Below, piece after piece: positions 5,873 to 20,150 of a stretch of 62,804 nt of DNA. Source of the DNA: Alphaproteobacteria bacterium (GTDB lineage Bacteria; Pseudomonadota; Alphaproteobacteria; SMXQ01); NCBI GenBank assembly GCA_029863585.1, contig JAOTVC010000002.1:1-62804 (forward strand). The letters run 5' to 3'. The translations under genes were made by a program, and so were the position numbers. Every line of letters starts with the position of its first letter. Positions within the stretch are counted from its first letter, which is position 1. The notes under the pieces were generated by a model. That model had not been told where the DNA came from, did not search any database, and saw only the letters and a list, made by a program, of their open reading frames with translations.

Positions 5873-6525
5873 GGGTGCCTCTCTATCAAATGGCGAACTG
5901 CCGTTCCTGTCCTATCGCGGTATCTCGTGATGAGACAACCTGCCTAGGCACCGGGGGTCGGCTTTCATGGGATGGCTTGCCGCTTTTTGGTGCCTGTTGC
6001 CTGCTTGTTCGCCGCTCAATCAGAGCGAACATGGGAACTCGGGTCCGGGCCGCGGCGCTAGCTTGGCGTGAATGCCAAAGACCGTGCGGACAAGGGCCGT
6101 CTTCGCCGCGCGATAACCGAAGGCGGACAAATCTCCCCTCAGGTCTTGGTCCCAGCCTTTTCCGCCGAGGCGCGCGATCGCAGATCGTTCTGCCGCGTCG
6201 GGCGTGTGGTGATTCGCGAGAAAGGCTTCGAGCTTGGCGGGGCGTTCCTGAGCAGGAATCTCGTCGTTTCAGCATGTCCGCTACCACGCCGCAAGTTGCA
6301 ACACCCGCGGCAAATTCAATTTTTTCGAAACCGCGGTATTTGCACATTTTTTATATGTGTTTAACATAACAGCCAAGTCGGACCCGGTCGAGTAAGCACG
6401 CCAGCCGTCGCTTGCTGGCCCGGAGAAATAAGAAATCCCAGATTGACCAATATTTCAGGACGATGCCCCGCGTGATGCAAGGCCGCCGGACAGGCCGGCA
6501 AATCTAATTTAGAAAAAGAGCCGTC

Positions 6526-7482
6526 ATGGATTTCTGTTGCCGCCTGATCTTGTCCGGATGCCTGGCGGCCACGCTGTCGTTCTTCGTCTTCGTCTTCTCT
6601 TTGGGCGCACAACAAACGCCTGCCGCCGGCCCGCCTGGCGGCGCGAGGGTGGTTTCCGCGGCGGACAAGGATTGCCTGCAATGCCATGGGCCGAAGAGTG
6701 ATCAGCCCGTCGGCGACATCGGCGTGACCAAGCATGGGACCGCGACCGACCGACGAACACCCGATTGCCGGAGCTGCCACGGGGACAGCGGGGCCCACAT
6801 CGCCGACCCCAAGGCGGCAAAGACGGACATTCAATATCACGCAAAGTCTTCCACCGAACCGGCGAAGCAGAATGGACAATGCCTGGCCTGCCATCGTGGC
6901 GGCCACATGATCCTGTGGCCCGGCAGTCCCCATCAGTCCCAAGAGGTGACCTGCGGCTCCTGCCACAAGATGCATACCCCCCGCGACCCGGTGATGACCA
7001 AGACGCAACAGACCCAGGTCTGCACCGCTTGTCACAAGCAGCAGCACGTGCAACTGAAAAAGCCGTCGCGCCATCCTATTGTCGAGGGCAAGGTGCGGTG
7101 CTCGGATTGTCACAATCCGCATGGGTCGGCGGGTCCCGCGCTGATGGCGCGCGACACAGTCAATGGCACCTGTTTCAAGTGCCATGCGGAAAAACGCGGC
7201 CCCTTCATCTGGAATCATCAGCCGGTTACCGAAAACTGCGCGCTTTGTCACGAACCGCACGGATCCACCGTGGCAAGCATGCTCAAATGGCGCCAACCGT
7301 TCCTGTGCCAACAATGTCATGAGATCACCAGCCATCGCGGCGCCATTCCGTCGCTGACCGCACCGGGGACGACGACCGGGATCGGCAGCACCCTGGCGCG
7401 CAGTTGTGTCAATTGCCACACCAATATTCATGGCTCGAACAATCCGACCAACAGTGCGGGGTCGCGATCGTTCCGGCGATGA
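6526..7482 (+). CDS. periplasmic decaheme c-type cytochrome, MtrA/DmsE/PioA/MtoA family
   Basis: Signal peptide plus exactly ten CXXCH motifs (CLQCH, CRSCH, CLACH, CGSCH, CTACH, CSDCH, CFKCH, CALCH, CQQCH, CVNCH) in 318 aa. Stop overlaps the start of the barrel gene (ATGA). Confidence 0.9.
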   Translation: MDFCCRLILSGCLAATLSFFVFVFSLGAQQTPAAGPPGGARVVSAADKDCLQCHGPKSDQPVGDIGVTKHGTATDRRTPDCRSCHGDSGAHIADPKAAKTDIQYHAKSSTEPAKQNGQCLACHRGGHMILWPGSPHQSQEVTCGSCHKMHTPRDPVMTKTQQTQVCTACHKQQHVQLKKPSRHPIVEGKVRCSDCHNPHGSAGPALMARDTVNGTCFKCHAEKRGPFIWNHQPVTENCALCHEPHGSTVASMLKWRQPFLCQQCHEITSHRGAIPSLTAPGTTTGIGSTLARSCVNCHTNIHGSNNPTNSAGSRSFRR

Positions 7483-9494
7483 TTCCTCCGGGGAGGGGAT
7501 CATTGAGACATCGGCAAACACATCGCCTTGTTTTGATCGCTCTTACCGTCGCCGCGGTGGGAGGGGCGACGAGGACTCTGGCGCAGGATCAACCTGCGGC
7601 GGAGACCGGCTTCAGAATCATGCCCCAAAGCACGGTCGAGGTCGGGGCGACGGGTGTCACGGGCGACACGCGCTATTTCGGCATGTTCAACGGGATGGCC
7701 GACGACGGCCTGTACGCGATCGCCGATGCCGACGTCGCCCTGCGCGAAGACGCGACGGGAACCTGGATGTGGTTTACGGCCCACAACCTTGGCCTCGACA
7801 GCAGAGAGCTCGGGTTCAGTCATGAGCGCCAAGGGGATTGGCGATACTTCATCGATCTCAGTCAGTTCACCTTTCGCAATCCGCTGGAGATCACGACCGG
7901 CTTGACGGGGATCGGCAAGCCCGATCAATCGGTATCCGGCACGGCGCTTCGCGAGGTCGACCTTGAAACCAAGCGCGAGCAGCTCAAGACGGGCTTCACG
8001 AAGCGGCTTGGCCGGAACCTCGACGTGAAGATGAAATTTCGCCATGAAGAAAAGCGGGGGGAACGGCAGTGGGGCGCGCAAGGGTTCAACTTCCTGACCG
8101 AGCCCGTCGATTTCGTCACGCGTGAGGTGACGGGCACGGCCGACTACACCGGACGGCGGCTGCAGCTGTCGGGCGGTTATATCGGCAGCTTCTTCACCAG
8201 CGCCCACGAAGTGCTGGACAATGATTCGAGCCAGCCCCGGATCGCCTTGCCGCCCGACAACTCGGCGCATCAGGTTCACCTGGCGGGCGCCTACGCCCTG
8301 ACGCCGACGACCCGGGCCACGTTCAAGGCATCCTACGGGATCGCCATCCAGGACGAGACCTTTTTCACGGCGCCGACCTTCGGCGGAAACACCCGCGGCG
8401 ATTTGGGTGGTCAGGTGAACACGACGCTCGTTCAGCTGGGGTTGACCGCGCGGCCGATGCGGAAACTGGCAGTCAATGCCAAGCTGCGCTACGACGACCG
8501 CGACGACCGCACCGACCGCGCGCAATACATTACCGCTTCCGCTTCGCGCAGCGGCTTCAATATCCCCTTCTCCCGCACCACCCTGACCGGCGACCTGGAA
8601 GCAATCTACAGCCTACCGCAAAGATTCCGCGTGATCGGCAGGCTCAAACAGGAAAATTGGAACCGCAGCAAACCGGTTCTACGCCAGGCCAGTTTTCGCG
8701 ACGACACCTACGAAACATCCTACGGGATCGAGCTCCGGCGCCCCCTCATGCACAACCTGGGAGGCTCCATTTCCTACACGCGGAGCGTCAAGAACGGTTC
8801 GCGGTGGCATGACGGCACTGATGGGGCGATCGACGCCATCAATCTGGCGGACCGGGAGCGCGACAAGGTTCGCCTGTCGCTGAGCTGGGTGCCTCAAGAA
8901 CGGCTGACGGCGCAGCTCAGCCTGGAATACTCGGACGACGTCTATGACAGCCGTCCTTTGGGGCCGCGCGACGGCAGCACGCTCTTGGCATCGCTCGATG
9001 TCGGTTATCAGCTGTCCCAAGACTGGAATGTGAACGCCTGGACGGCCCTGAGCGATTTCCGCCTCGACCAAGCTTCCAACGGCGACGGGACGGCTGTTGG
9101 CGGCGGCGCCATCACCGACGAGGACTGGGCGGCGGATCTCCAGCATCTTGGGATCGCGGCGGGGTTCGGGGTCCGTGGCCGCCTCACGGACAGCCTCACC
9201 ACGGGTGCCGAGGCGCAATATTCCACGGACCGGAGCAAGCACGAATTGACCGGCCTGGACGCTTCGGTCATCCCGAACCTGCCGGACATCCGCTACCGCC
9301 AGGCAAGTGTCGGCCTGTTCCTGGATTACAAGATCTCGGCCAGCAGGCGCATCCGGCTGAATTACGGATATTCACGGATCGTGGCGAAGGATTGGACATG
9401 GGAGTCCTGGACCTTTGCCGACGGCACGACGATAGAGATCCCCGGACGGGAAGAGACCCATTTCATCGGCATCGCGTATTCCCATCGATGGTAA
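7479..9494 (+). CDS. MtrB/PioB family decaheme-associated outer-membrane beta-barrel protein
   Basis: ATG 7479 is in frame with track ORF 7404..9494 and overlaps the mtrA-like stop. Signal-like N-terminus (LVLIALTVAAVGGATRTLAQ). About 670 aa, Y/G/D/T/R-rich strand pattern, C-terminal …IGIAYSHRW (aromatic terminus). Position directly after a decaheme cytochrome. Confidence 0.85.
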   Translation: MIPPGRGSLRHRQTHRLVLIALTVAAVGGATRTLAQDQPAAETGFRIMPQSTVEVGATGVTGDTRYFGMFNGMADDGLYAIADADVALREDATGTWMWFTAHNLGLDSRELGFSHERQGDWRYFIDLSQFTFRNPLEITTGLTGIGKPDQSVSGTALREVDLETKREQLKTGFTKRLGRNLDVKMKFRHEEKRGERQWGAQGFNFLTEPVDFVTREVTGTADYTGRRLQLSGGYIGSFFTSAHEVLDNDSSQPRIALPPDNSAHQVHLAGAYALTPTTRATFKASYGIAIQDETFFTAPTFGGNTRGDLGGQVNTTLVQLGLTARPMRKLAVNAKLRYDDRDDRTDRAQYITASASRSGFNIPFSRTTLTGDLEAIYSLPQRFRVIGRLKQENWNRSKPVLRQASFRDDTYETSYGIELRRPLMHNLGGSISYTRSVKNGSRWHDGTDGAIDAINLADRERDKVRLSLSWVPQERLTAQLSLEYSDDVYDSRPLGPRDGSTLLASLDVGYQLSQDWNVNAWTALSDFRLDQASNGDGTAVGGGAITDEDWAADLQHLGIAAGFGVRGRLTDSLTTGAEAQYSTDRSKHELTGLDASVIPNLPDIRYRQASVGLFLDYKISASRRIRLNYGYSRIVAKDWTWESWTFADGTTIEIPGREETHFIGIAYSHRW

Positions 9495-9960
9495 CCCTGT
9501 CCCGGTGGAATCAACGTGCCGCTTTAGTCGGGCAATGCACCCGCCAAATTCACCAGTCTCCTCCGCCTAACACCGCAGCTTCTGCATCGGGCGCTCGCCC
9601 ATCGATGAAAGAAAACCTGCTCCATCCGGGATTGTCAGGTCCGCTTCTTTAATCGGACATCGGGCAGCTTTATTTGCGTAAAGTCTCGAGGCGGCGGGCC
9701 GATGTGAGATCCGAGCAAGATTTTGGTTTTCCCGTCCGCAATTGGGTCGTTATCATTGCCCCGGCTGCGGCCGGCCCCAAACGACAGGGGAAGGGGGGCT
9801 GGTTCCGCGGCTTTGCAAAGGCGCGACGGCCTACATGGATCAATATGGGGCTCGCTTGCCATCGCATTTGGAACTTCGGCCTTGAAGGCCTTCCCTGACG
9901 GTTCCAACGCGGTGTCCCGGAACGTGCCGCCAAAACTTTATCCCAACGGGAGGCAACAAC

Positions 9961-14680: not shown

Positions 14681-16471
14681 TTAGTACCAGGTGCTGGAGA
14701 GGCCGAGAAAGAAGGCGCGGGCGCCCTGGCGCAGATTGACCACCGAGTAGCCGCCTTCCTGGACGACCAGGATCGGGTGGCCGAGCCGCCCGAGCGCGGT
14801 GCCGATACTGCGCATTCCCCGAACCGTCACGTTGAACGATCCCGTGGGATCGCCCTTCATGATGTCGAAACCGAGGGAGACAACGAGAAATTCCGGACCG
14901 AACCGCTTGATTTGCCGCAACGCCTCGTCCAGCACCTTGAGATAGCGGCCGTCGTCGACACCCCTTCGCAGCGGATAGTTCCTGTTGAATCCCTTGCCCT
15001 CTCCTTCGCCGCGCTCGTCCTCGAACCCGGCAAAATGCGGGTAGGACAGGCTTGGCGTTCCATGGATCGACAGGGTGTAGACGTCCGCGCGCCGGTAAAA
15101 GATCTCCTGGGACCCGTTGCCGTGGTGATAGTCGATGTCCAAGAGGGCAACCCGGCCGCTCTTGGAGAGATGGTGGGCCGCGACCGCGGCATTGTTGAGA
15201 TAGCAGAACCCACCGTAGACCGATCGTTCGGCGTGATGGCCGGGAGGACGGCAGAGCGCGTAGGCGATCCGCTCGCCGTTCAGAATCAGCTCCGCGCCGG
15301 TCAGGGCCGCATCCACGGCATCACGTGCCGCCGGCCAGGCGTTGTGGGTCAGCGGGGTGAAGGTGTCGACGCAAAAATATCCCGCGCGCGAGGCCAGCTC
15401 GCGCGGCCGGCGCTCCGGACGCCTGATCGGAAACACTTCGGGGTATACCAACTCATCGGGCTTCAGCCGCTCGCACACCGCTTCCAGATAATGAACGAGA
15501 TGGGGATCATGCACCTCGCGGACCGGTGCAAGGCCGAACCTTCGCCTGGGCAAGGTCTCAATCGGTAATTCACGCAGCCCGCGGAGCACGGCGTCGACCC
15601 GGACCGGCCGCTCGACATAGCCGCGTTCCTTCAGATGGTGAATGCTGTGGCGCTCGCTGACGACCACCTTGATCGGCCGTAACCAGCGGTTTGGTTCGGT
15701 AGGCAATGGGGTTGAGGATTCGGTATAGACGGGCGGGCGGATTTGAACGGGATCGTCCCTGAAAGACCTCGTGATTTGCCGCGCATAGGGATGATTGCTG
15801 GCGAGGCCGTACTGGGCATGAAACATGCGCCGCACGAACCGCCTGGCCTCGCGTGCAGACAACGGCCCCTTTCGATCCAGCGGGTCGAACAACAGAAACG
15901 TCTGATAGCCCTCGTTGGCCGGATTCGGCACCGCGTCGTACAAGGTGCCGACGATCGGCCGGGCACCGTAACGTTCGTAAAACTTCAGCCGGCTGCGGTT
16001 GATGCGCAACAGCTCCGGATGCCGCAGCTTCGCCTTCTCGTCCGGCCCCGCGTCGAAGAACATTCCGCGCGCGCCCTTGGCCACGAGCAGCTCACGGGTC
16101 GCCTCGTACAGCGCCCCGCCGATGCCGCGGGCGCGCCGTTCGGGGTGGCTTGCAATGTAGTAAAGGTAGCCGAAGCGAAGATCGGGGAAATAAAGGTTGA
16201 AGGAAAAGCCGAGAACCTGGCCCCGTCCGTCCTCCGCCAACAACAATATCCAGCCGAAGTCTTCGGGAACCCGACTTTCAGCCAGGCCGACCATGCGGTC
16301 CAGTATGGCGACCTCCTCGGGGAAGGTGAGCTTGAACATATCGACGACTTCGTCGAACTGGCGGCGGTCGGCGGTCGAGGCGAGATCGAAAAGGCGGCGG
16401 AAACGAATCACGGAGAAGCCTGCTGAGGGTGTTCGCCCGCTCCAGGTCATCCTGGCGGGACAGCGCTTCAA
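14681..16471 (-). CDS. fusion protein: N-terminal GNAT N-acetyltransferase domain + C-terminal histone-deacetylase/acetylpolyamine-amidohydrolase (Zn-dependent) domain
   Basis: GNAT motif A HPERRARGIGGALY in the first ~200 aa. HDAC signatures PPGHHA, DIDYHHGNG, SLGFDIMKGDP and QEGGY in the last ~320 aa. Start codon uncertain (alternatives within the first 45 codons). Confidence 0.85.
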   Translation of the reverse strand: MKRCPARMTWSGRTPSAGFSVIRFRRLFDLASTADRRQFDEVVDMFKLTFPEEVAILDRMVGLAESRVPEDFGWILLLAEDGRGQVLGFSFNLYFPDLRFGYLYYIASHPERRARGIGGALYEATRELLVAKGARGMFFDAGPDEKAKLRHPELLRINRSRLKFYERYGARPIVGTLYDAVPNPANEGYQTFLLFDPLDRKGPLSAREARRFVRRMFHAQYGLASNHPYARQITRSFRDDPVQIRPPVYTESSTPLPTEPNRWLRPIKVVVSERHSIHHLKERGYVERPVRVDAVLRGLRELPIETLPRRRFGLAPVREVHDPHLVHYLEAVCERLKPDELVYPEVFPIRRPERRPRELASRAGYFCVDTFTPLTHNAWPAARDAVDAALTGAELILNGERIAYALCRPPGHHAERSVYGGFCYLNNAAVAAHHLSKSGRVALLDIDYHHGNGSQEIFYRRADVYTLSIHGTPSLSYPHFAGFEDERGEGEGKGFNRNYPLRRGVDDGRYLKVLDEALRQIKRFGPEFLVVSLGFDIMKGDPTGSFNVTVRGMRSIGTALGRLGHPILVVQEGGYSVVNLRQGARAFFLGLSSTWY

Positions 16472-16558: not shown

Positions 16559-17248
16559 TTGGATATGGCGAATCCCAAAGGGCATCGTGAGGTTGAATGC
16601 CCTGGTTCCGCCGTCACTCGACAAACCCTGGATCCTTGTCCGGCCGGCTTGGAAGCCTGTGCGGCCTCCCATCATTGGGCGCGGCAACTCAGGACCCTGG
16701 GCCACGGGGCGCGGATAAGGTGTCCGGAACCGGCCGCGAGCTGGCCGCCTGGATCGGCCTGGTGTCCAAGCAGAACTCAGCCGGCGGCAAGGCCCGCATG
16801 GGACGCATCTCCAAGCAACGGGATTCTTGTCACAGATTGCTCCTGGTGGCCGGCGCCATGGCGGTGGTCCGCCACGGGCGCAGGACCGGCTTCAAGGACA
16901 ACCCGTGGCTCGCCGATCTCACGACCCACAAGCCGGCGAAGGTCGCCGCCGTGGCGCTGGCCAACAAGAACGCCCGCACCGCTTGGGCGCTGGCGGTCAG
17001 CGGCGAGACATGCCGAAGGCGGGCTGGCCGCGCCTGAAGCGGCGGAGACATCGAAATTGGCGGGGTGGAGGCGAGGCAACGCAAGGCCGGTCGGGCACCG
17101 GCAGCCGGGAAAACCCGTTTCGGCCAAGGCGCGTCGAGCCCGGGCTCTTAGTTGTGACCCGACCCGCGGGTCGCATGAGGGTCAGCGGTCAGAAACCGCA
17201 TCATCAGGCCGGGCACCTAGCCCACCCGACCAGCTTGTCGCACCGTGA
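16559..17248 (+). mobile_element. decayed IS110-family transposase (internally deleted, frameshifted remnant)
   Basis: Frame a carries LEACAASHHWARQLRTLGH (IS110 N-terminal region). Frame b carries GRELAAWIGLVSKQNSAGGKARMGRISKQ…LLLVAGAMAVVRH…KPAKVAAVALANKNARTAWAL (Transposase_20 C-terminal domain). Tail …DPTRGSHEGQRS returns to frame a. The catalytic middle part is missing. Confidence 0.75.
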
Positions 17249-17308: not shown

Positions 17309-19183
17309 TCAGCTGCAGTCGAGCTGCGTCTTCCCTTCGACTTCATGCACTGAACGGACAAACATCCGGTGTTCCGGCCGACGGTTAAACAGCTCCCGGG
17401 ACAAGGGATTGATGAAATGACTCTCAATCCTGTTTCCGATACCGCGGCCACCTTCGAACCAATCGCTTACACAGAGTCTGCGCAGGTCCCGCAGAGCGTC
17501 TGGCGTGATCTCGATATCGACCCCATGCTCCGCGCGAACCGCCTCCAAGACACGCCCCATAATCGCCGAGAATATTTCCCAGGCGGTTTCTCCCCGCATG
17601 AAATCGAAAGTGACGATGTTTTGCCCGATCCGGTTCATGAGTTCGGGTCGTCCCAGTTCGTATCGGAAATAGCCATGCACTGCATCGACGATTTTACGGT
17701 CAATCTCATCGTAATGATCAGAGGGCAGGATATTCATGCCCATGTTTTGCGAATGATCTTTGCCGATCATGCCGATATTTGAAGTGAAGATTATGAGCGC
17801 CTCGGAGAAATACGCTGTCGAGCCACGCGAATCTGTCAGGCGGCCGTCGTCGAGGATTTGAAGAAACGTGTCGAGGATGCGGGGGTGGGCTTTCTCCACC
17901 TCGTCAAACAGAAGTACGCTGAAGGGTCTCTTGTGCATGGCGTTGACTAGTTCACCACCGCGCTCATGACCTGGATGGCCCGGAGGCGCGCCGATCAGTC
18001 GGTTGATCGAGTTTTCCTCCATGAACTCGGACATATCGAACCTCTGGCACGCAGTATCATCGCCGAATAGGAGTTCGGTGACCGCTTTAGCCAGTTCGGT
18101 CTTGCCAACGCCGGTTGGTCCTGCAAAGAAAAGCACGCCGCGCGGCCGACTGTACCGAGAACTGGTTTGCGATCCAGACAGCCCAACGATCGATCTCACC
18201 AGAATCTCAAGTGTCTTTTCGATTGCCTTGCCCTGACCCTTGATCCGATTGGTCAGAATCTCTTCGGCCCTCAGTATCCGGGATCGCATCACCGGGGATG
18301 TCCACGGGTTTCGCCGCGTTCCGAGGCGGTACGTACGAATTGCCTCGGAGATCTCGCTACATGCCAGACCTTCGTTTTCGGCGAGCCGGGCAACCGACTT
18401 CATGCCAACAAGCGTCATGCCGTCGGATTCGAGAGCGAATTGCTCCAAGAAAGTGGCCTTCTTGGCATCTTCGAGCTGCGCGCCATCCGCGAAATCTGCG
18501 ATCAGGATTTTGGCAAAGGCATAACGGTCTTCCAGATTCGGAAGCTCTACCGACACTTCTCGCAGCGCGTCATTGCCGACAACAAACCACTCGGGAAGAT
18601 CGCCCGGCTTGTCGACGAGCCACAGCGTTGGGCTTAAGAGCATTGAAGCTTCGCCTTGCCTGCCGGCGGCGATCATCATTTGTCGAGCCGCTCTGTCGGC
18701 CTCGACCAACACTTCGGAAAAACCATGAGGCAGTGTTTCAAAAAGATGCGATGCATAGTCAATCACGAATACGATCGGGAAGGCGTTGAGAGTAGTGATG
18801 GATCTGTGAAGCTCGGCAAATTCCGCAGGTGTTGCAGCTTTCTGTCCGAGTTCTAGTCCGCGGTCTGCTACGGCGGACACGGCGTGGTCGTCACATTCGT
18901 TGTGTAGTCTCAGTCCGCCATCGGGATCGTAGAAGAACAGGGCGCCGTACTTCTGTTCCCGCGCAATGCGCCAGAGGATTTGCTCAAAAGAAAGAAACGC
19001 CACCTCGGTTCCGTCATCCAGTGGGTAGAGGTCGCGCAGGTTCCCGGAGATTGCGAAATGCGGTCGGGTGGATAAACCCGAATTGAGTTCATCAAACCAC
19101 ACCGGGACCGCCCATTCCCCTGCCCTCGATAGCCGGGTTTCGGCCGGTTCCCTGACGCCGATGACTGCTAACTCGCGCTCCAT
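17309..19183 (-). CDS. orphan Clp/Hsp100-like AAA+ ATPase: degenerate D1-like N-half + intact ClpA/B-type D2 and D2-small
   Basis: ATG 19183 (MERELAV…) with GAGGA ~9 nt upstream, inside track ORF 17309..19333. D2 motifs: GPTGVGKTELAKA, DMSEFMEENSINRLIGAPPG, LLFDEVEKAHP, LQILDDGRLTD, IFTSNIG. The N-half lacks GK[ST]. Confidence 0.85.
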   Translation of the reverse strand: MERELAVIGVREPAETRLSRAGEWAVPVWFDELNSGLSTRPHFAISGNLRDLYPLDDGTEVAFLSFEQILWRIAREQKYGALFFYDPDGGLRLHNECDDHAVSAVADRGLELGQKAATPAEFAELHRSITTLNAFPIVFVIDYASHLFETLPHGFSEVLVEADRAARQMMIAAGRQGEASMLLSPTLWLVDKPGDLPEWFVVGNDALREVSVELPNLEDRYAFAKILIADFADGAQLEDAKKATFLEQFALESDGMTLVGMKSVARLAENEGLACSEISEAIRTYRLGTRRNPWTSPVMRSRILRAEEILTNRIKGQGKAIEKTLEILVRSIVGLSGSQTSSRYSRPRGVLFFAGPTGVGKTELAKAVTELLFGDDTACQRFDMSEFMEENSINRLIGAPPGHPGHERGGELVNAMHKRPFSVLLFDEVEKAHPRILDTFLQILDDGRLTDSRGSTAYFSEALIIFTSNIGMIGKDHSQNMGMNILPSDHYDEIDRKIVDAVHGYFRYELGRPELMNRIGQNIVTFDFMRGETAWEIFSAIMGRVLEAVRAEHGVDIEITPDALRDLRRLCVSDWFEGGRGIGNRIESHFINPLSRELFNRRPEHRMFVRSVHEVEGKTQLDCS

Positions 19184-19661
19184 TAATGCTGGTCCTCGAA
19201 GTCGATGCTCTTCGCGATTGTGATTTCCAGAATTTCGACCACGGGCTGTCTTCCTGCCCGGCCGATTCCAATACCTGTTCCACGCAACAGGCCTGACCGC
19301 AAACCAGGCTTGCGCGTCACGGCAAGTCTTCAACGCTTGTAACGGTATGTTGGTTAACGATTTTCTAATGCCGCCCCAAAAGCTAGGGCAGGCGGGGCCC
19401 CGCCGCCCGGTATCTGAGGCGCCTCACGGATTGCAGGGATCGATCCGCTCATCCCGATGCCCAGGACGGGGGTCCCGGTCCCGCGGCCCGTGAGAAGATC
19501 GGGAAAGCGCGAGAAACGTGGAATTTCCCTATAGAATCCCCGGACCGGATAGACGGCATGGACTCCGCCCGGAGAGCCGATATCCTTTTCAAAGGCAACC
19601 CGGTCGACCGGCGCGAAGTCATGGGCGCGGTCAAATCCGGAGAATAGAAGGGCTCGGAATC

Positions 19662-20150
19662 ATGAGGGCGTACCTAACCTATCATGCGGAAGCGGTTGCC
19701 AGAGAGCGGAACGAATCGCCGCGCCTCTTGACGGACAAGGGTCGGGAGGATGCGCGGCGCCTGGGTCTCTTCCTGAAGAAGGACGGGATCGGCAAAGCCC
19801 GCGTTCTGCATAACGGGACAACCTGGATCCAGGAAAATGCGGAAATCCTGGCAAGGGCATTGGAAGACGGAAACACCGACATCGTATCCACGCCCCTCTA
19901 TCCCCTCAATGCCAAGGCGGATATCGAACCCTTGATCGACGCCCTAAACTCGGCTTCGGACGATGTCGTCGCCGTCCTTCCCAGTGATGTGACCTTTCGG
20001 ACCGCGACCCAATTGATTGCCGGCCGTCAAACGCCTCACGCGGTGTCCATGACCAACGGCGGCGCGGTCTGCCTGGAACGCGGCGGCGAGGGGGTGTGGA
20101 GCATCGTTTGGCTCGTGACGACAAAGCAGCTTGCGGCCTTGCGGGATTGA
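19662..20150 (+). CDS. SixA/histidine-phosphatase-like protein (divergent active site)
   Basis: ATG 19662 is in frame with track ORF 19518..20150. 162 aa. Overall SixA-like layout (…LTDKGREDARRLGLFLKK…RVLHNGTTWIQENAEIL…), but YHA replaces the RHG motif. Confidence 0.45.
   Translation: MRAYLTYHAEAVARERNESPRLLTDKGREDARRLGLFLKKDGIGKARVLHNGTTWIQENAEILARALEDGNTDIVSTPLYPLNAKADIEPLIDALNSASDDVVAVLPSDVTFRTATQLIAGRQTPHAVSMTNGGAVCLERGGEGVWSIVWLVTTKQLAALRD

What the first reader, a model, noticed from the sequence alone, without database searches (positions are those of the whole stretch)
17309..19183. Stand-alone Clp/Hsp100-like AAA+ protein with a pseudo-ATPase D1 tier, in an AT-richer islet beside an IS remnant
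The C-terminal half of this 624-aa ORF is a clear ClpA/B-type D2 module. It carries Walker A GPTGVGKT, DMSEFMEENSINRLIGAPPG, Walker B LLFDEVEKAH, LQILDDGRLTD, IFTSNIG and a D2-small-like tail. The N-terminal half has the layout of a D1 tier but looks catalytically dead: the P-loop position reads AISGNLRD (no GK[ST]) and the Walker-B position reads FVIDYASH (no DE). A D1 lid-like motif is retained (REVSVELPNLEDRYAFAKIL, compare RFQxVxVxEPxxE…IL). I see no Clp N-domain and no ClpB M-domain coiled coil. There is no ClpP, adaptor or T6SS gene nearby. The gene is visibly more AT-rich than its neighbours and abuts a decayed IS110 transposase. About 60 nt separate its stop from the IS remnant, and ~480 bp lie upstream of its start, with no convincing ORF in either spacer. 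I do not recognise this architecture (half-dead double-ring Clp ATPase as a single horizontally acquired gene) as a characterised family. It could be a single-gene stress, disaggregase or conflict (defence) module.
Basis: partly seen in the sequence, partly recalled or inferred. Interest (0 to 1): 0.7.

Follow-up and report, generated by a model that had tools for sequence, protein, structure and literature searches.

The report
Mobile Clp-like ATPase with dead ring
This recently imported gene encodes a two-layer Clp-type protein-remodelling motor in which only the lower layer can burn ATP; it belongs to an undescribed family that elsewhere sits in a conserved kinase/radical-SAM operon, but this marine branch has gone solo, and what it acts on is still unknown.

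Summary
Window 17309..19183 (minus strand) encodes a 624-aa protein. Its C-terminal half is a fully competent ClpB/ClpC-type D2 ATPase. Its N-terminal half folds as an AAA+ module with a rebuilt nucleotide site: [ST]GNxRD plus a beta-hairpin replaces the P-loop, and D-Y replaces the Walker-B D-E.

These replacement motifs are conserved in 213 relatives, and both tiers are under purifying selection (dN/dS 0.1-0.26). The N tier is therefore a selected pseudo-ATPase, not decay.

The N-domain has no Pfam, NCBIfam, PHROG or PDB sequence match. It defines a family of at least 768 clusters. In Actinomycetota, Bacillota, Rhizobium plasmids and many metagenomes the gene sits in a conserved operon: unknown 400-aa protein, AAA, NrdG-like radical-SAM, Ser/Thr kinase, often PP2C and FHA.

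The window gene belongs to a monophyletic alphaproteobacterial branch with no partners, a relaxed D2 pore-loop tyrosine (GHPGH here) and a new N-M-G-M-N-I-L-P loop. It is the lowest-GC stretch of the window. Its 81-88 % relatives lie in unrelated, IS-rich contexts.

Defence-island placement is not supported. Function is inferred, not shown.

The parts
17309..19183 (-). Complete coding sequence (624 aa plus stop) of the two-tier Clp-like AAA+ protein.
   Evidence: ORF list. Identical protein P0001 found on 4 contigs. The conserved DNA block in four relatives runs from 17284/17305 to 19207/19212. dN/dS is 0.12-0.21.
19184..19212 (-). Short conserved 5' leader with a GAGGA Shine-Dalgarno 9 nt before the ATG. 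This is the upstream limit of the unit shared with relatives.
   Evidence: blastn boundaries; sequence read.
18296..19117 (-). Pseudo-ATPase tier (residues 23-296): an AAA+ large subdomain plus a helical lid, in the D1 position.
   Evidence: AlphaFold models, pLDDT 83-85. Foldseek matches to Rpt, Vps4, p97, FtsH, Rix7 and Pex1/6 AAA modules, E about 1e-6, TM 0.45-0.53. The full model aligns over about 630 columns with ClpC/ClpB D1+D2 chains. No Pfam, NCBIfam, PDB sequence or PHROG match.
19031..19048 (-). SGNLRD (residues 46-51), the motif that replaces the Walker-A P-loop directly after strand beta-1.
   Evidence: Family statistics in 213 sequences: G47 207, N48 196, R50 146, D51 210; no GK[ST]. 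Position taken from the model.
18989..19030 (-). Beta-hairpin insertion (residues 52-65) between beta-1 and helix alpha-1, occupying the place of the phosphate-binding loop.
   Evidence: DSSP of both models: E52-56 and E61-65, then H66-76.
18749..18763 (-). IDYAS (residues 141-145), the Walker-B position. The Asp is kept (157/213) and the catalytic Glu is replaced by Tyr (159/213).
   Evidence: Strand beta-3 spans residues 137-141 in the models.
18524..18562 (-). R208 at the arginine-finger position, followed by strand beta-5 and the LPNLEDR motif (P215 and R220 each 212/213).
   Evidence: Assignment of the position is an inference from AAA+ topology in the models.
18302..18316 (-). RRNPW, the invariant inter-tier linker (residues 290-294).
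   Evidence: Invariant columns in A1 and A2.
17312..18295 (-). Catalytic D2 tier (residues 297-624): AAA_2 large domain, D2-small domain and a C-terminal beta-hairpin.
   Evidence: Pfam and NCBIfam. phmmer to ClpB1 and ClpC, E 1e-52 to 1e-54. PHROG 4871.
18098..18121 (-). D2 Walker A, GPTGVGKT.
   Evidence: K361 is present in 212/213 sequences and the glycines in 213/213.
17966..17980 (-). D2 pore-1 loop, GHPGH (ClpB/ClpC have GYVG[YH]). The gripping tyrosine is replaced by His.
   Evidence: Alignment to ClpB1 and ClpC. Solo clade: H17, A9, Y5 of 34. Other clades: Y68, F2 of 70.
17900..17914 (-). D2 Walker B, LLFDE.
   Evidence: D427 in 210 and E428 in 209 of 213 sequences.
17723..17746 (-). 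Clade-specific loop NMGMNILP (residues 480-487). It aligns without gaps onto the ClpP-docking VGF tip of B. subtilis ClpC.
   Evidence: alignment: M481-G482-M483 against V671-G672-F673. The docking motif is described in PMC12521514 and PMC8745299. The loop is found only in the solo clade. pLDDT is below 50 at residues 475-480.
17441..17452 (-). GGRG, the D2 sensor-2 arginine (R580), equivalent to the GAR motif of ClpB/ClpC.
   Evidence: R580 in 208/213 sequences; alignment.
16597..17037 (+). IS110-family transposase fragment (C-terminal Transposase_20 domain only), convergent with the AAA gene.
   Evidence: PF02371 E 1.5e-9 and no DEDD_Tnp_IS110 domain. The same gene call appears on the source contig.
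19213..19661 (.). Non-conserved upstream spacer (GC 0.59). It is not part of the unit shared with relatives. No Rfam match and no sigma-70-like promoter hit.

Best explanation
The gene encodes a functional, stand-alone Clp/Hsp100-type ring ATPase in which only the lower (D2) tier hydrolyses ATP. The upper tier is a conserved pseudo-ATPase AAA+ module. Its nucleotide pocket has been rebuilt: [ST]GNxRD plus a beta-hairpin replaces the P-loop, and Tyr replaces the catalytic Glu.

Inferred: the retained arginine-finger residue R208 contacts the acidic pseudo-site (D51/D142) of the neighbouring subunit. The upper tier would then act as a nucleotide-independent assembly and recognition platform, as the inactive D1 ring does in Pex1/Pex6. 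D2 would supply the mechanical work.

The protein belongs to an undescribed family. Other branches of that family work inside a conserved operon: an unknown 400-aa protein, the AAA, an NrdG-like radical-SAM protein, a Ser/Thr kinase, and often PP2C and FHA. The window gene is a member of one monophyletic alphaproteobacterial branch. That branch lost all partners, relaxed the D2 pore-loop tyrosine (His here) and fixed a new N-[ML]-G-[MLQ]-N-[IV]-L-P loop.

In this genome the gene is a recent single-gene import from a ~55 % GC donor, next to an IS remnant.

Shown: the architecture, motif conservation, purifying selection, mobility, and the operon context of relatives. Inferred: ring assembly, the scaffold role of the upper tier, and remodelling of an unlinked target. 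The biological target is unknown.
For: Architecture and fold:
- Confident models with two AAA+ tiers.
- The full model aligns over about 630 columns with ClpC/ClpB D1+D2.
- The N tier alone matches classical-clade AAA+ modules.

Live D2: Walker A and B, sensor-1, Arg-finger region and sensor-2 are present in at least 208 of 213 sequences. Alignment to ClpB1 and ClpC gives E about 1e-53.

Selected pseudo-site: G47, N48, D51, Y143, R208, P215 and R220 are conserved. dN/dS of the N tier is 0.11-0.26.

Family size and stable architecture: 768 clusters at E <= 1e-3, and most of the 150 listed members are 600-700 aa, i.e. the same architecture.

Operon in relatives:
- Individual loci.
- 52, 50 and 50 of 87 loci carry the rSAM, kinase and UP400 genes on the same strand.
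- 36 of 59 loci with enough flank have the rSAM gene adjacent, mostly with a 4-bp overlap.
- Fusions AAA+Fer4_12 and AAA+FHA exist.

Solo branch: monophyletic, with an altered pore loop and a new loop. No recurrent neighbour. Operon partners are absent from the window.

Mobility: 81-88 % relatives lie in unrelated contexts, one bracketed by IS3 copies. The shared DNA is the ORF plus about 25 bp on each side. The ORF is the lowest-GC stretch of the window, while the gene matches its flanks in lower-GC hosts.
Against: - No oligomer was modelled or measured. The hexamer, the R208-to-pseudo-site contact and the scaffold role are inferences from AAA+ topology.
- The pore-loop tyrosine that Clp motors use to grip substrate is His here and Ala in 9 of 34 clade members. 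Processive threading is therefore doubtful and the mode of work is unclear.
- No substrate, partner or phenotype is known for any member of the family.
- Sequence-level homology of the N tier to Clp D1 is undetectable. 'D1' is a positional and structural label only.
Confidence: 0.6

Rival explanations
1. Single-gene anti-phage or anti-plasmid defence module. The ATPase senses or remodels an invader protein and aborts infection on its own.
For: - Relatives sit in operons typical of conflict or threat-sensing systems (kinase, PP2C, FHA, with CHAT and RES genes nearby) and on plasmids.
- Distribution is patchy and the gene moves with IS elements.
- The window copy has foreign composition.
- There are partial PADLOC hits to PDC-M37B and DolB.
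Against: - The PADLOC hits cover only the generic P-loop core, residues 351-471.
- 132 neighbours of 36 solo loci show no defence enrichment, only singletons (TIR, BrxH/DpdF, E1-E2) and generic ABC-ATPase matches.
- There is no effector domain.
- There are no phage homologues.
- The locus is syntenic within several genera.
Confidence: 0.18
2. ClpP-coupled unfoldase. The clade-specific N-M-G-M-N loop docks into the hydrophobic pockets of the housekeeping ClpP, making an alternative Clp protease without an adaptor-binding N-domain.
For: - M481-G482-M483 aligns without gaps onto the VGF ClpP-docking tip of B. subtilis ClpC. This corresponds to AGF 671-673 of S. aureus ClpC.
- The loop is long, flexible (low pLDDT) and fixed only in the solo clade.
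- A hydrophobic-Gly-hydrophobic tripeptide occurs in about 22 of 34 clade members.
Against: - The canonical motif is (L/I/V)-G-(F/L). Met in the third position is untested.
- 10 of 34 clade members have Gln there (MGQ, SGQ, AGQ).
- Rice ClpB1, which is not a ClpP partner, shows AGM in the same gapped region.
- A protease-feeding motor would be expected to keep the pore-loop tyrosine, which this clade lost.
Confidence: 0.12
3. Mobile stress-tolerance disaggregase, analogous to the horizontally transferred ClpG/ClpK heat-resistance ATPases.
For: - It is a mobile Clp-type ATPase in marine bacteria.
- Two Usp genes lie within about 10 kb on the source contig.
- The D2 is most similar to ClpB.
Against: - There is no aggregate-binding N-domain and no M-domain.
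- D1 is inactive and the D2 pore tyrosine is lost.
- The ClpG and ClpK models match D2 only, at about 170 bits against cut-offs of 1900.
- The Usp neighbours are not conserved in other loci.
Confidence: 0.07
4. Decaying remnant. A broken copy of the operonic ATPase, stranded by IS activity and no longer functional.
For: - It is adjacent to a degraded IS110.
- It has lost its operon partners.
- Both D1 and the pore loop are non-canonical.
Against: - The frame is intact and the identical protein occurs on 4 contigs.
- dN/dS is 0.09-0.26 in both tiers across five genomes.
- The clade spans at least 34 species with conserved clade-specific motifs.
Confidence: 0.03

Closest known systems
ClpB / ClpC / ClpA (class-I Clp/Hsp100 unfoldases)
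   Same: - The D2 tier is a bona fide AAA_2 module with all catalytic motifs and a D2-small domain.
- The overall two-tier layout superposes on ClpC and ClpB chains over about 630 columns.
   Different: - The upper tier has no P-loop and no catalytic Glu, and has no detectable sequence similarity to D1.
- There is no Clp_N domain and no M-domain.
- The pore-loop Tyr is replaced by His.
- Whole-protein scores are 4- to 10-fold below the family cut-offs.
Pex1/Pex6 (and similar type-II AAA+ machines with one inactive ring)
   Same: A double-ring design in which the D1 tier is catalytically inactive and serves as a scaffold while D2 does the work (preprint 10.1101/2022.11.19.517173, listed). Pex1/Pex6 is among the fold matches of the N tier.
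   Different: Pex1/Pex6 is eukaryotic, forms a hetero-hexamer, belongs to the classical clade in both tiers and carries N-terminal domains. Here D2 is Clp-type, and the pseudo-site carries its own conserved motif set.
Skd3 / human CLPB
   Same: A single catalytic ClpB-D2-like nucleotide-binding domain preceded by a non-catalytic N-terminal region. D2 matches residues 350-471 at E about 1e-31.
   Different: The N-terminal region of Skd3 is made of ankyrin repeats, not an AAA+ fold. Skd3 keeps the pore-loop tyrosine (from my own knowledge, not tested here).
DolB (Dodola) and PDC-M37B in PADLOC
   Same: ClpB-D2-like ATPase cores used in known or candidate defence systems. Hits are E 3e-20 and 2e-28.
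   Different: - The hits cover only the P-loop core (residues 299-472 and 351-471), not the whole profile.
- No DolA-like partner is present.
- The N tier is unmatched.
ClpG / ClpK (mobile heat-resistance disaggregases)
   Same: Horizontally transferred Clp-family ATPases carried as accessory genes. The D2-level match is about 170 bits.
   Different: ClpG and ClpK are about 930-950 aa, with two active tiers and aggregate-binding N-terminal domains (profile lengths 932 and 949; their properties are from my own knowledge). The cut-off of 1900 bits is not approached.
Kinase/PP2C/FHA threat-sensing modules (Esr pathway; T6SS PpkA-PppA-Fha1 with ClpV)
   Same: The operonic relatives combine an AAA+ ATPase with a Ser/Thr kinase, a PP2C phosphatase and an FHA protein. 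Conceptually this resembles the systems in PMC13622651.
   Different: - Esr uses MoxR and vWA proteins, not a Clp-like ATPase.
- There are no T6SS genes here.
- The radical-SAM and UP400 partners have no counterpart in those systems.
- The window gene has none of these partners.

Membership tests
Class-I Clp/Hsp100 (ClpA/ClpB/ClpC) | D2 AAA_2 module with Walker A and B, sensor-1, arginine finger, sensor-2 and a D2-small domain | tested here: met
   PF07724 at 1e-45 and a weak PF10431 match. Alignment to ClpB1 and ClpC. Motifs present in at least 208 of 213 sequences.
Class-I Clp/Hsp100 (ClpA/ClpB/ClpC) | Catalytically competent D1 with GxxxxGK[ST] and hhhhDE | tested here: not met
   SGNLRD and IDYAS occupy these positions. 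No GK[ST] or DE is the common residue at these positions in the 213 relatives; the listed column counts show none.
Class-I Clp/Hsp100 (ClpA/ClpB/ClpC) | Clp N-terminal domain (Clp_N) | tested here: not met
   No Pfam hit before residue 339 at E <= 1. Residues 1-22 are disordered.
Class-I Clp/Hsp100 (ClpB/ClpC) | M-domain coiled coil inserted in D1 | tested here: not met
   The model shows no long coiled-coil insertion. The N tier is only about 275 residues.
Class-I Clp/Hsp100 (ClpA/ClpB/ClpC/ClpV equivalogs) | Whole-protein score above the NCBIfam curated cut-off | tested here: not met
   ClpB 229 bits against a cut-off of 1232; ClpA 188 against 993; ClpV 178 against 885.
Clp/Hsp100 threading motors | Aromatic pore-1 loop residue in D2 (GYVG) | tested here: not met
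   GHPGH in the window protein. Solo clade H17, A9, Y5 of 34, against Y68, F2 of 70 elsewhere.
ClpP-partner ATPases (ClpA/ClpC/ClpE/ClpX) | Flexible loop with a (L/I/V)-G-(F/L) tip that docks on ClpP | tested here: inconclusive
   MGM aligns onto the ClpC VGF tip. The third residue is Met or Gln, not Phe or Leu. Binding cannot be tested with these tools.
Undescribed pseudo-D1 Clp-like family (N-domain profile A2) | N-domain with [ST]GNxRD, D-Y-A-S, DLPxWF, R208, LPxLxxR and RRNPW, followed by a Clp D2 | tested here: met
   The profile finds 768 clusters, and most of the listed members are 600-700 aa, i.e. the same architecture.
UP400-AAA-radical SAM-Ser/Thr kinase operon (relatives) | Adjacent same-strand NrdG-like radical-SAM gene, ~400-aa upstream gene and large kinase | tested here: not met
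   No partner homologue anywhere in the 62.8-kb window. None near 37 solo-clade loci. Partners are present in 50-52 of 87 distant loci.
Dodola (DolA/DolB) and PDC-M37 | Full-length match to DolB or M37B plus the cognate partner gene next door | tested here: not met
   The matches cover only part of the protein (DolB residues 299-472; M37B 351-471). The window neighbours are a GNAT-HDAC fusion, an IS110 fragment, a SixA-like gene and an isochorismatase.
IS110 insertion sequence (neighbouring remnant) | Intact transposase with DEDD_Tnp_IS110 and Transposase_20 domains | tested here: not met
   Only PF02371 is present, at residues 45-95 of a 146-aa ORF. It is a fragment.

The most novel reading that the evidence does not exclude
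The family is the ATPase core of an undescribed, widespread conflict or threat-response system regulated by phosphorylation: UP400, a pseudo-D1 Clp-like AAA+, an NrdG-like radical-SAM enzyme, a Ser/Thr kinase, PP2C and FHA. The window gene represents a lineage that became self-sufficient as a single mobile gene. It would work by a non-canonical mechanism, with a His-lined rather than Tyr-lined pore, and with a new N-M-G-M-N loop that plugs it into a host machine such as ClpP.
Probability: 0.3. Interest if true: 0.8.

Novelty: new variant of a known kind. Interest (0 to 1): 0.62.

Why it matters
Clp/Hsp100 motors are textbook two-ring machines in which both rings bind ATP. Here the upper ring has been converted into a conserved pseudo-ATPase with its own motif set. 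This defines a sizeable family (at least 768 clusters at 50 % identity) that no domain database describes.

The family would give AAA+ researchers a natural experiment on what a non-hydrolysing tier contributes. It also exposes a conserved operon, apparently unstudied, that links a Clp-like unfoldase to a small radical-SAM enzyme and Ser/Thr phospho-signalling across three phyla and on plasmids. That operon is a candidate new conflict or stress system.

The window copy shows what happens when such a motor is stripped of its partners and travels as a single gene under purifying selection. This makes it a compact, directly testable construct: one ORF, with a D2 Walker-A control.

Tried and rejected
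- Sequence homology of the N tier to known families. Pfam, NCBIfam, PADLOC, PHROGs and a PDB profile search gave nothing. The 'retained D1 lid motif' is therefore not accepted as evidence.
- Conserved partner of the solo clade. A Ubie-type methyltransferase lies downstream in L004 and L008 but in no other locus. An SBP_bac_5 neighbour cluster is a generic transporter.
- Defence-island hypothesis. PADLOC and Pfam scans of 132 neighbours were negative.
- Phage origin. No tblastn hit in 50,697 phage records.
- Regulatory RNA or promoter in the 478-bp spacer. No Rfam hit in the whole window and no sigma-70-like site. The spacer is not conserved with the gene.
- Known description of the operon. It is not in Kaur et al. 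2020 or in the Esr preprint, and four other literature queries were empty or irrelevant. PADLOC does not recognise the partners apart from generic kinase hits.
- A metagenome scan with a 14-sequence alignment failed for lack of a conserved stretch. It succeeded with 4 sequences.
- The longer TTG start (674 aa) is rejected, because homology ends 25 bp upstream of the ATG.
Full report
OBSERVATION. The ORF exists as described, on the minus strand at 17309..19183, and gives 624 aa from an ATG. A longer frame from a TTG at 19333 is not used. DNA similarity to four relatives begins only about 25 bp upstream of the ATG, and a GAGGA lies 9 nt before it. Pfam finds AAA_2 at residues 347-519 (1e-45) and a weak ClpB_D2-small match. 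NCBIfam models for ClpB, ClpA, ClpV, ClpG and ClpK match residues 300-608 only, at 170-229 bits against cut-offs of 885-1900. Nothing in Pfam, NCBIfam, PADLOC, PHROGs or a PDB profile search matches residues 1-300. The ORF is the lowest-GC stretch of the 62.8-kb window: GC 0.557, GC3 0.63, rank 3 of 610 windows, with neighbour GC3 of 0.73-0.875. The neighbouring 146-aa ORF at 16597..17037 carries only the C-terminal Transposase_20 domain of an IS110 transposase. It ends 271 nt from the stop codon, not 60. The upstream spacer is 478 bp.

ANATOMY. AlphaFold models of the whole protein (pLDDT 83, pTM 0.74) and of residues 1-296 alone (pLDDT 85.5, pTM 0.81) agree. The whole model aligns over about 630 columns with two-tier ClpC and ClpB chains. 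The N-terminal model alone matches AAA+ modules of the classical clade (Rpt subunits, Vps4, p97, FtsH, Rix7, Pex1/6) at E about 1e-6 and TM 0.45-0.53. The N half is therefore an AAA+ large-plus-lid module in the D1 position.

Its nucleotide site is rebuilt. Strand beta-1 (residues 42-47) runs into SGNLRD, followed by a beta-hairpin (52-65) where the P-loop should be. Strand beta-3 (137-141) is followed by D-Y-A-S. Across 213 full-length relatives these replacements are conserved: G47 207, N48 196, D51 210, D142 157, Y143 159. So are R208 at the arginine-finger position (194), P215 and R220 (212 each), and the RRNPW linker.

The D2 tier keeps every catalytic residue in at least 208 of 213 sequences. 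No sequence-level link between the N tier and Clp D1 could be shown.

THE FAMILY AND ITS USUAL CONTEXT. A profile of the N-domain alone finds 768 representative clusters (446 at E <= 1e-10), and most of the 150 listed are 600-700 aa, the same architecture. Named members come from Alphaproteobacteria, Actinomycetota, Eremiobacterota and Clostridia, and all are labelled only 'AAA family ATPase'.

In Amycolatopsis, Actinoallomurus, a Beijerinckiaceae MAG, Rhizobium megaplasmids and a 44-kb Aristaeella plasmid, the gene lies in an operon. The operon has an unknown ~400-aa protein upstream, a ~217-aa radical-SAM protein downstream (NrdG/PflA-activase-like, below cut-offs), large Ser/Thr kinases, and often PP2C and FHA proteins. 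CHAT and RES genes lie nearby in one locus. Two 'long' family members are fusions of the ATPase with Fer4_12 or FHA.

In an unbiased clustering of ORFs from 87 such loci, the radical-SAM, kinase and UP400 genes recur on the same strand in 52, 50 and 50 loci, and PP2C in 17. Among 59 loci with at least 700 bp on both sides, 36 have the radical-SAM gene immediately adjacent, usually overlapping by 4 bp. The commonest order is UP400-AAA-rSAM-STK(-PP2C-STK). PADLOC does not recognise this operon, and I found no description of it in the searchable literature.

THE WINDOW'S BRANCH. None of these partners is present in the window or near 37 loci of the closest relatives. In a midpoint-rooted neighbour-joining tree, the partner-less alphaproteobacterial sequences (Rhodobacterales, Erythrobacteraceae, MAGs) form one clade of 34 leaves. 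It lies next to four partner-less metagenomic sequences and then operonic lineages.

The clade has two derived characters.
- The D2 pore-1 loop, GY[VI]G in 68 of 70 other sequences, reads G-[H17/A9/Y5]-x-G. In the window protein it is GHPGH.
- A loop after sensor-1 has become N-[ML]-G-[MLQ]-N-[IV]-L-P. In the phmmer alignment, M481-G482-M483 falls without gaps on V671-G672-F673 of B. subtilis ClpC. That is the ClpP-docking tip, reported as AGF 671-673 in S. aureus ClpC, with the canonical motif (L/I/V)-G-(F/L).

This is a lead, not a result. Met in the third position is untested, 10 of 34 members have Gln there, and plant ClpB1 shows AGM in the same gapped region.

MOBILITY AND SELECTION. Proteins 81-88 % identical to the window's lie in unrelated neighbourhoods. 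One sits between cupins and a glutamate synthase. One is bracketed by two IS3-family copies with an IS110 nearby. One is 3 kb from a DDE transposase. The only DNA they share with the window is the ORF plus about 25 bp on each side. In hosts of 54-57 % GC the gene matches its flanks, whereas in the 64 % GC window it stands out. This indicates a recent import. Pairwise dN/dS is 0.12-0.21 overall, 0.11-0.26 for the pseudo-tier and 0.09-0.17 for D2, so the gene is functional.

Across the wider solo clade, 132 immediate neighbours of 36 loci are mostly transport and metabolic genes. PADLOC matches are generic ABC-ATPase hits plus singletons, and transposases appear in one locus only. Within Marimonas, Croceicoccus and Limibaculum the locus is syntenic. 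The gene is thus an accessory chromosomal gene that is stable over short times and relocates over longer ones. It is not a defence-island resident. It occurs on nine plasmids (distant branch) and in no phage record.

MECHANISM. Shown:
- a live Clp-type D2;
- a selected pseudo-ATPase tier of AAA+ fold;
- loss of the operon partners;
- an altered pore loop;
- single-gene mobility.

Inferred:
- The protein forms a stacked hexamer.
- The upper tier provides nucleotide-independent assembly and target recognition, as in Pex1/Pex6, perhaps through R208 contacting the acidic pseudo-site of the neighbouring subunit.
- D2 hydrolysis remodels an unlinked target.

Because the gripping tyrosine is gone, processive unfolding is doubtful. 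I rate the general explanation at 0.6. The more specific rivals are single-gene defence (0.18), ClpP coupling (0.12), stress disaggregase (0.07) and relic (0.03). Defence and ClpP coupling are refinements of the main explanation rather than exclusions of it.

COMPARISON AND NOVELTY. It works like a Clp/Hsp100 motor in D2 and like a Pex1/Pex6-type machine in having an inactive scaffold tier. It fails the membership tests for ClpA, ClpB, ClpC, ClpV, ClpG and ClpK: inactive D1, no N- or M-domain, sub-threshold scores and no pore tyrosine. It also fails the tests for Dodola and PDC-M37, where it gives only a partial match and has no partner. It is a member of an undescribed family, so I class it as a new variant of a known kind. 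Interest is moderate to high (0.62). The architecture claim is solid and the operon discovery adds value, but no function is established for the window gene.

Noticed in passing
L042 5829-12743; L043 3310-13058; L044 5754-15077; L046 8992-17733; L047 4615-16029; 80 metagenome loci L049-L128: A conserved operon that appears undescribed: a ~400-aa coiled-coil-rich protein without Pfam match, the pseudo-D1 Clp-like AAA+, an NrdG-like radical-SAM protein (CxxxCxxC, ~217 aa), and giant Ser/Thr kinase(s), often with PP2C and FHA. It occurs in Actinomycetota, Bacillota and Pseudomonadota and on plasmids. Gene overlaps of 4 bp suggest translational coupling.
   Followed up: partly
P0181 (870 aa) and P0259 (868 aa, Streptomyces clavuligerus): Natural fusions of the family ATPase with its operon partners. 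P0181 carries a C-terminal Fer4_12 radical-SAM-like domain and P0259 a C-terminal FHA domain. This is independent support for the functional link.
   Followed up: partly
L130 6420-7816 and 10258-11354 (flanking the AAA gene at 8001-9875): An 81 %-identical copy of the gene is bracketed by two IS3-family elements (HTH_Tnp_1 plus rve) in opposite orientation, like a composite transposon. An IS110 DEDD-domain gene lies 7 kb away.
   Followed up: no
window 19662-20150 (+): The 162-aa divergent neighbour is a sub-threshold SixA-like phosphohistidine phosphatase (TIGR00249, 49 bits against a cut-off of 74.5). Its N-terminal catalytic motif reads T-Y-H-A. From my own memory, E. coli SixA has R-H-G at this position, so it may be a pseudo-phosphatase. 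It is not conserved next to the AAA gene elsewhere.
   Followed up: partly
window 14681-16471 (-): A 596-aa fusion of an N-terminal GNAT acetyltransferase domain with a C-terminal histone-deacetylase-family (PF00850) domain, so an acetylating and a deacetylating module sit in one protein.
   Followed up: no
window ~6361-9494 (+): An MtrB/PioB-type outer-membrane porin gene sits next to a multihaem cytochrome gene (Pfam calls on the source contig, L001 19690-21875). This suggests an extracellular electron-transfer module in this alphaproteobacterium.
   Followed up: no
L004 1679-3388 (Altererythrobacter): A TIR_2-TPR protein lies about 4.6 kb upstream of the solo AAA gene. It is the only clear immune-type domain seen near a solo-clade member (one TIR hit among 132 neighbours).
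   Followed up: no
P0052, P0053, P0061, P0113, P0115 (alignment A1, columns 640-685): Several Rhodobacterales homologues carry a 40-60-residue Pro/Arg-rich C-terminal tail ending in a shared ...D.WRAR.E.. motif. The window protein lacks it.
   Followed up: no
L004 10015-10881 and L008 10079-10906: A Ubie/Methyltransf_11-type methyltransferase lies immediately downstream of the AAA gene in two distant solo-clade genomes, but in none of the other 35 loci.
   Followed up: yes
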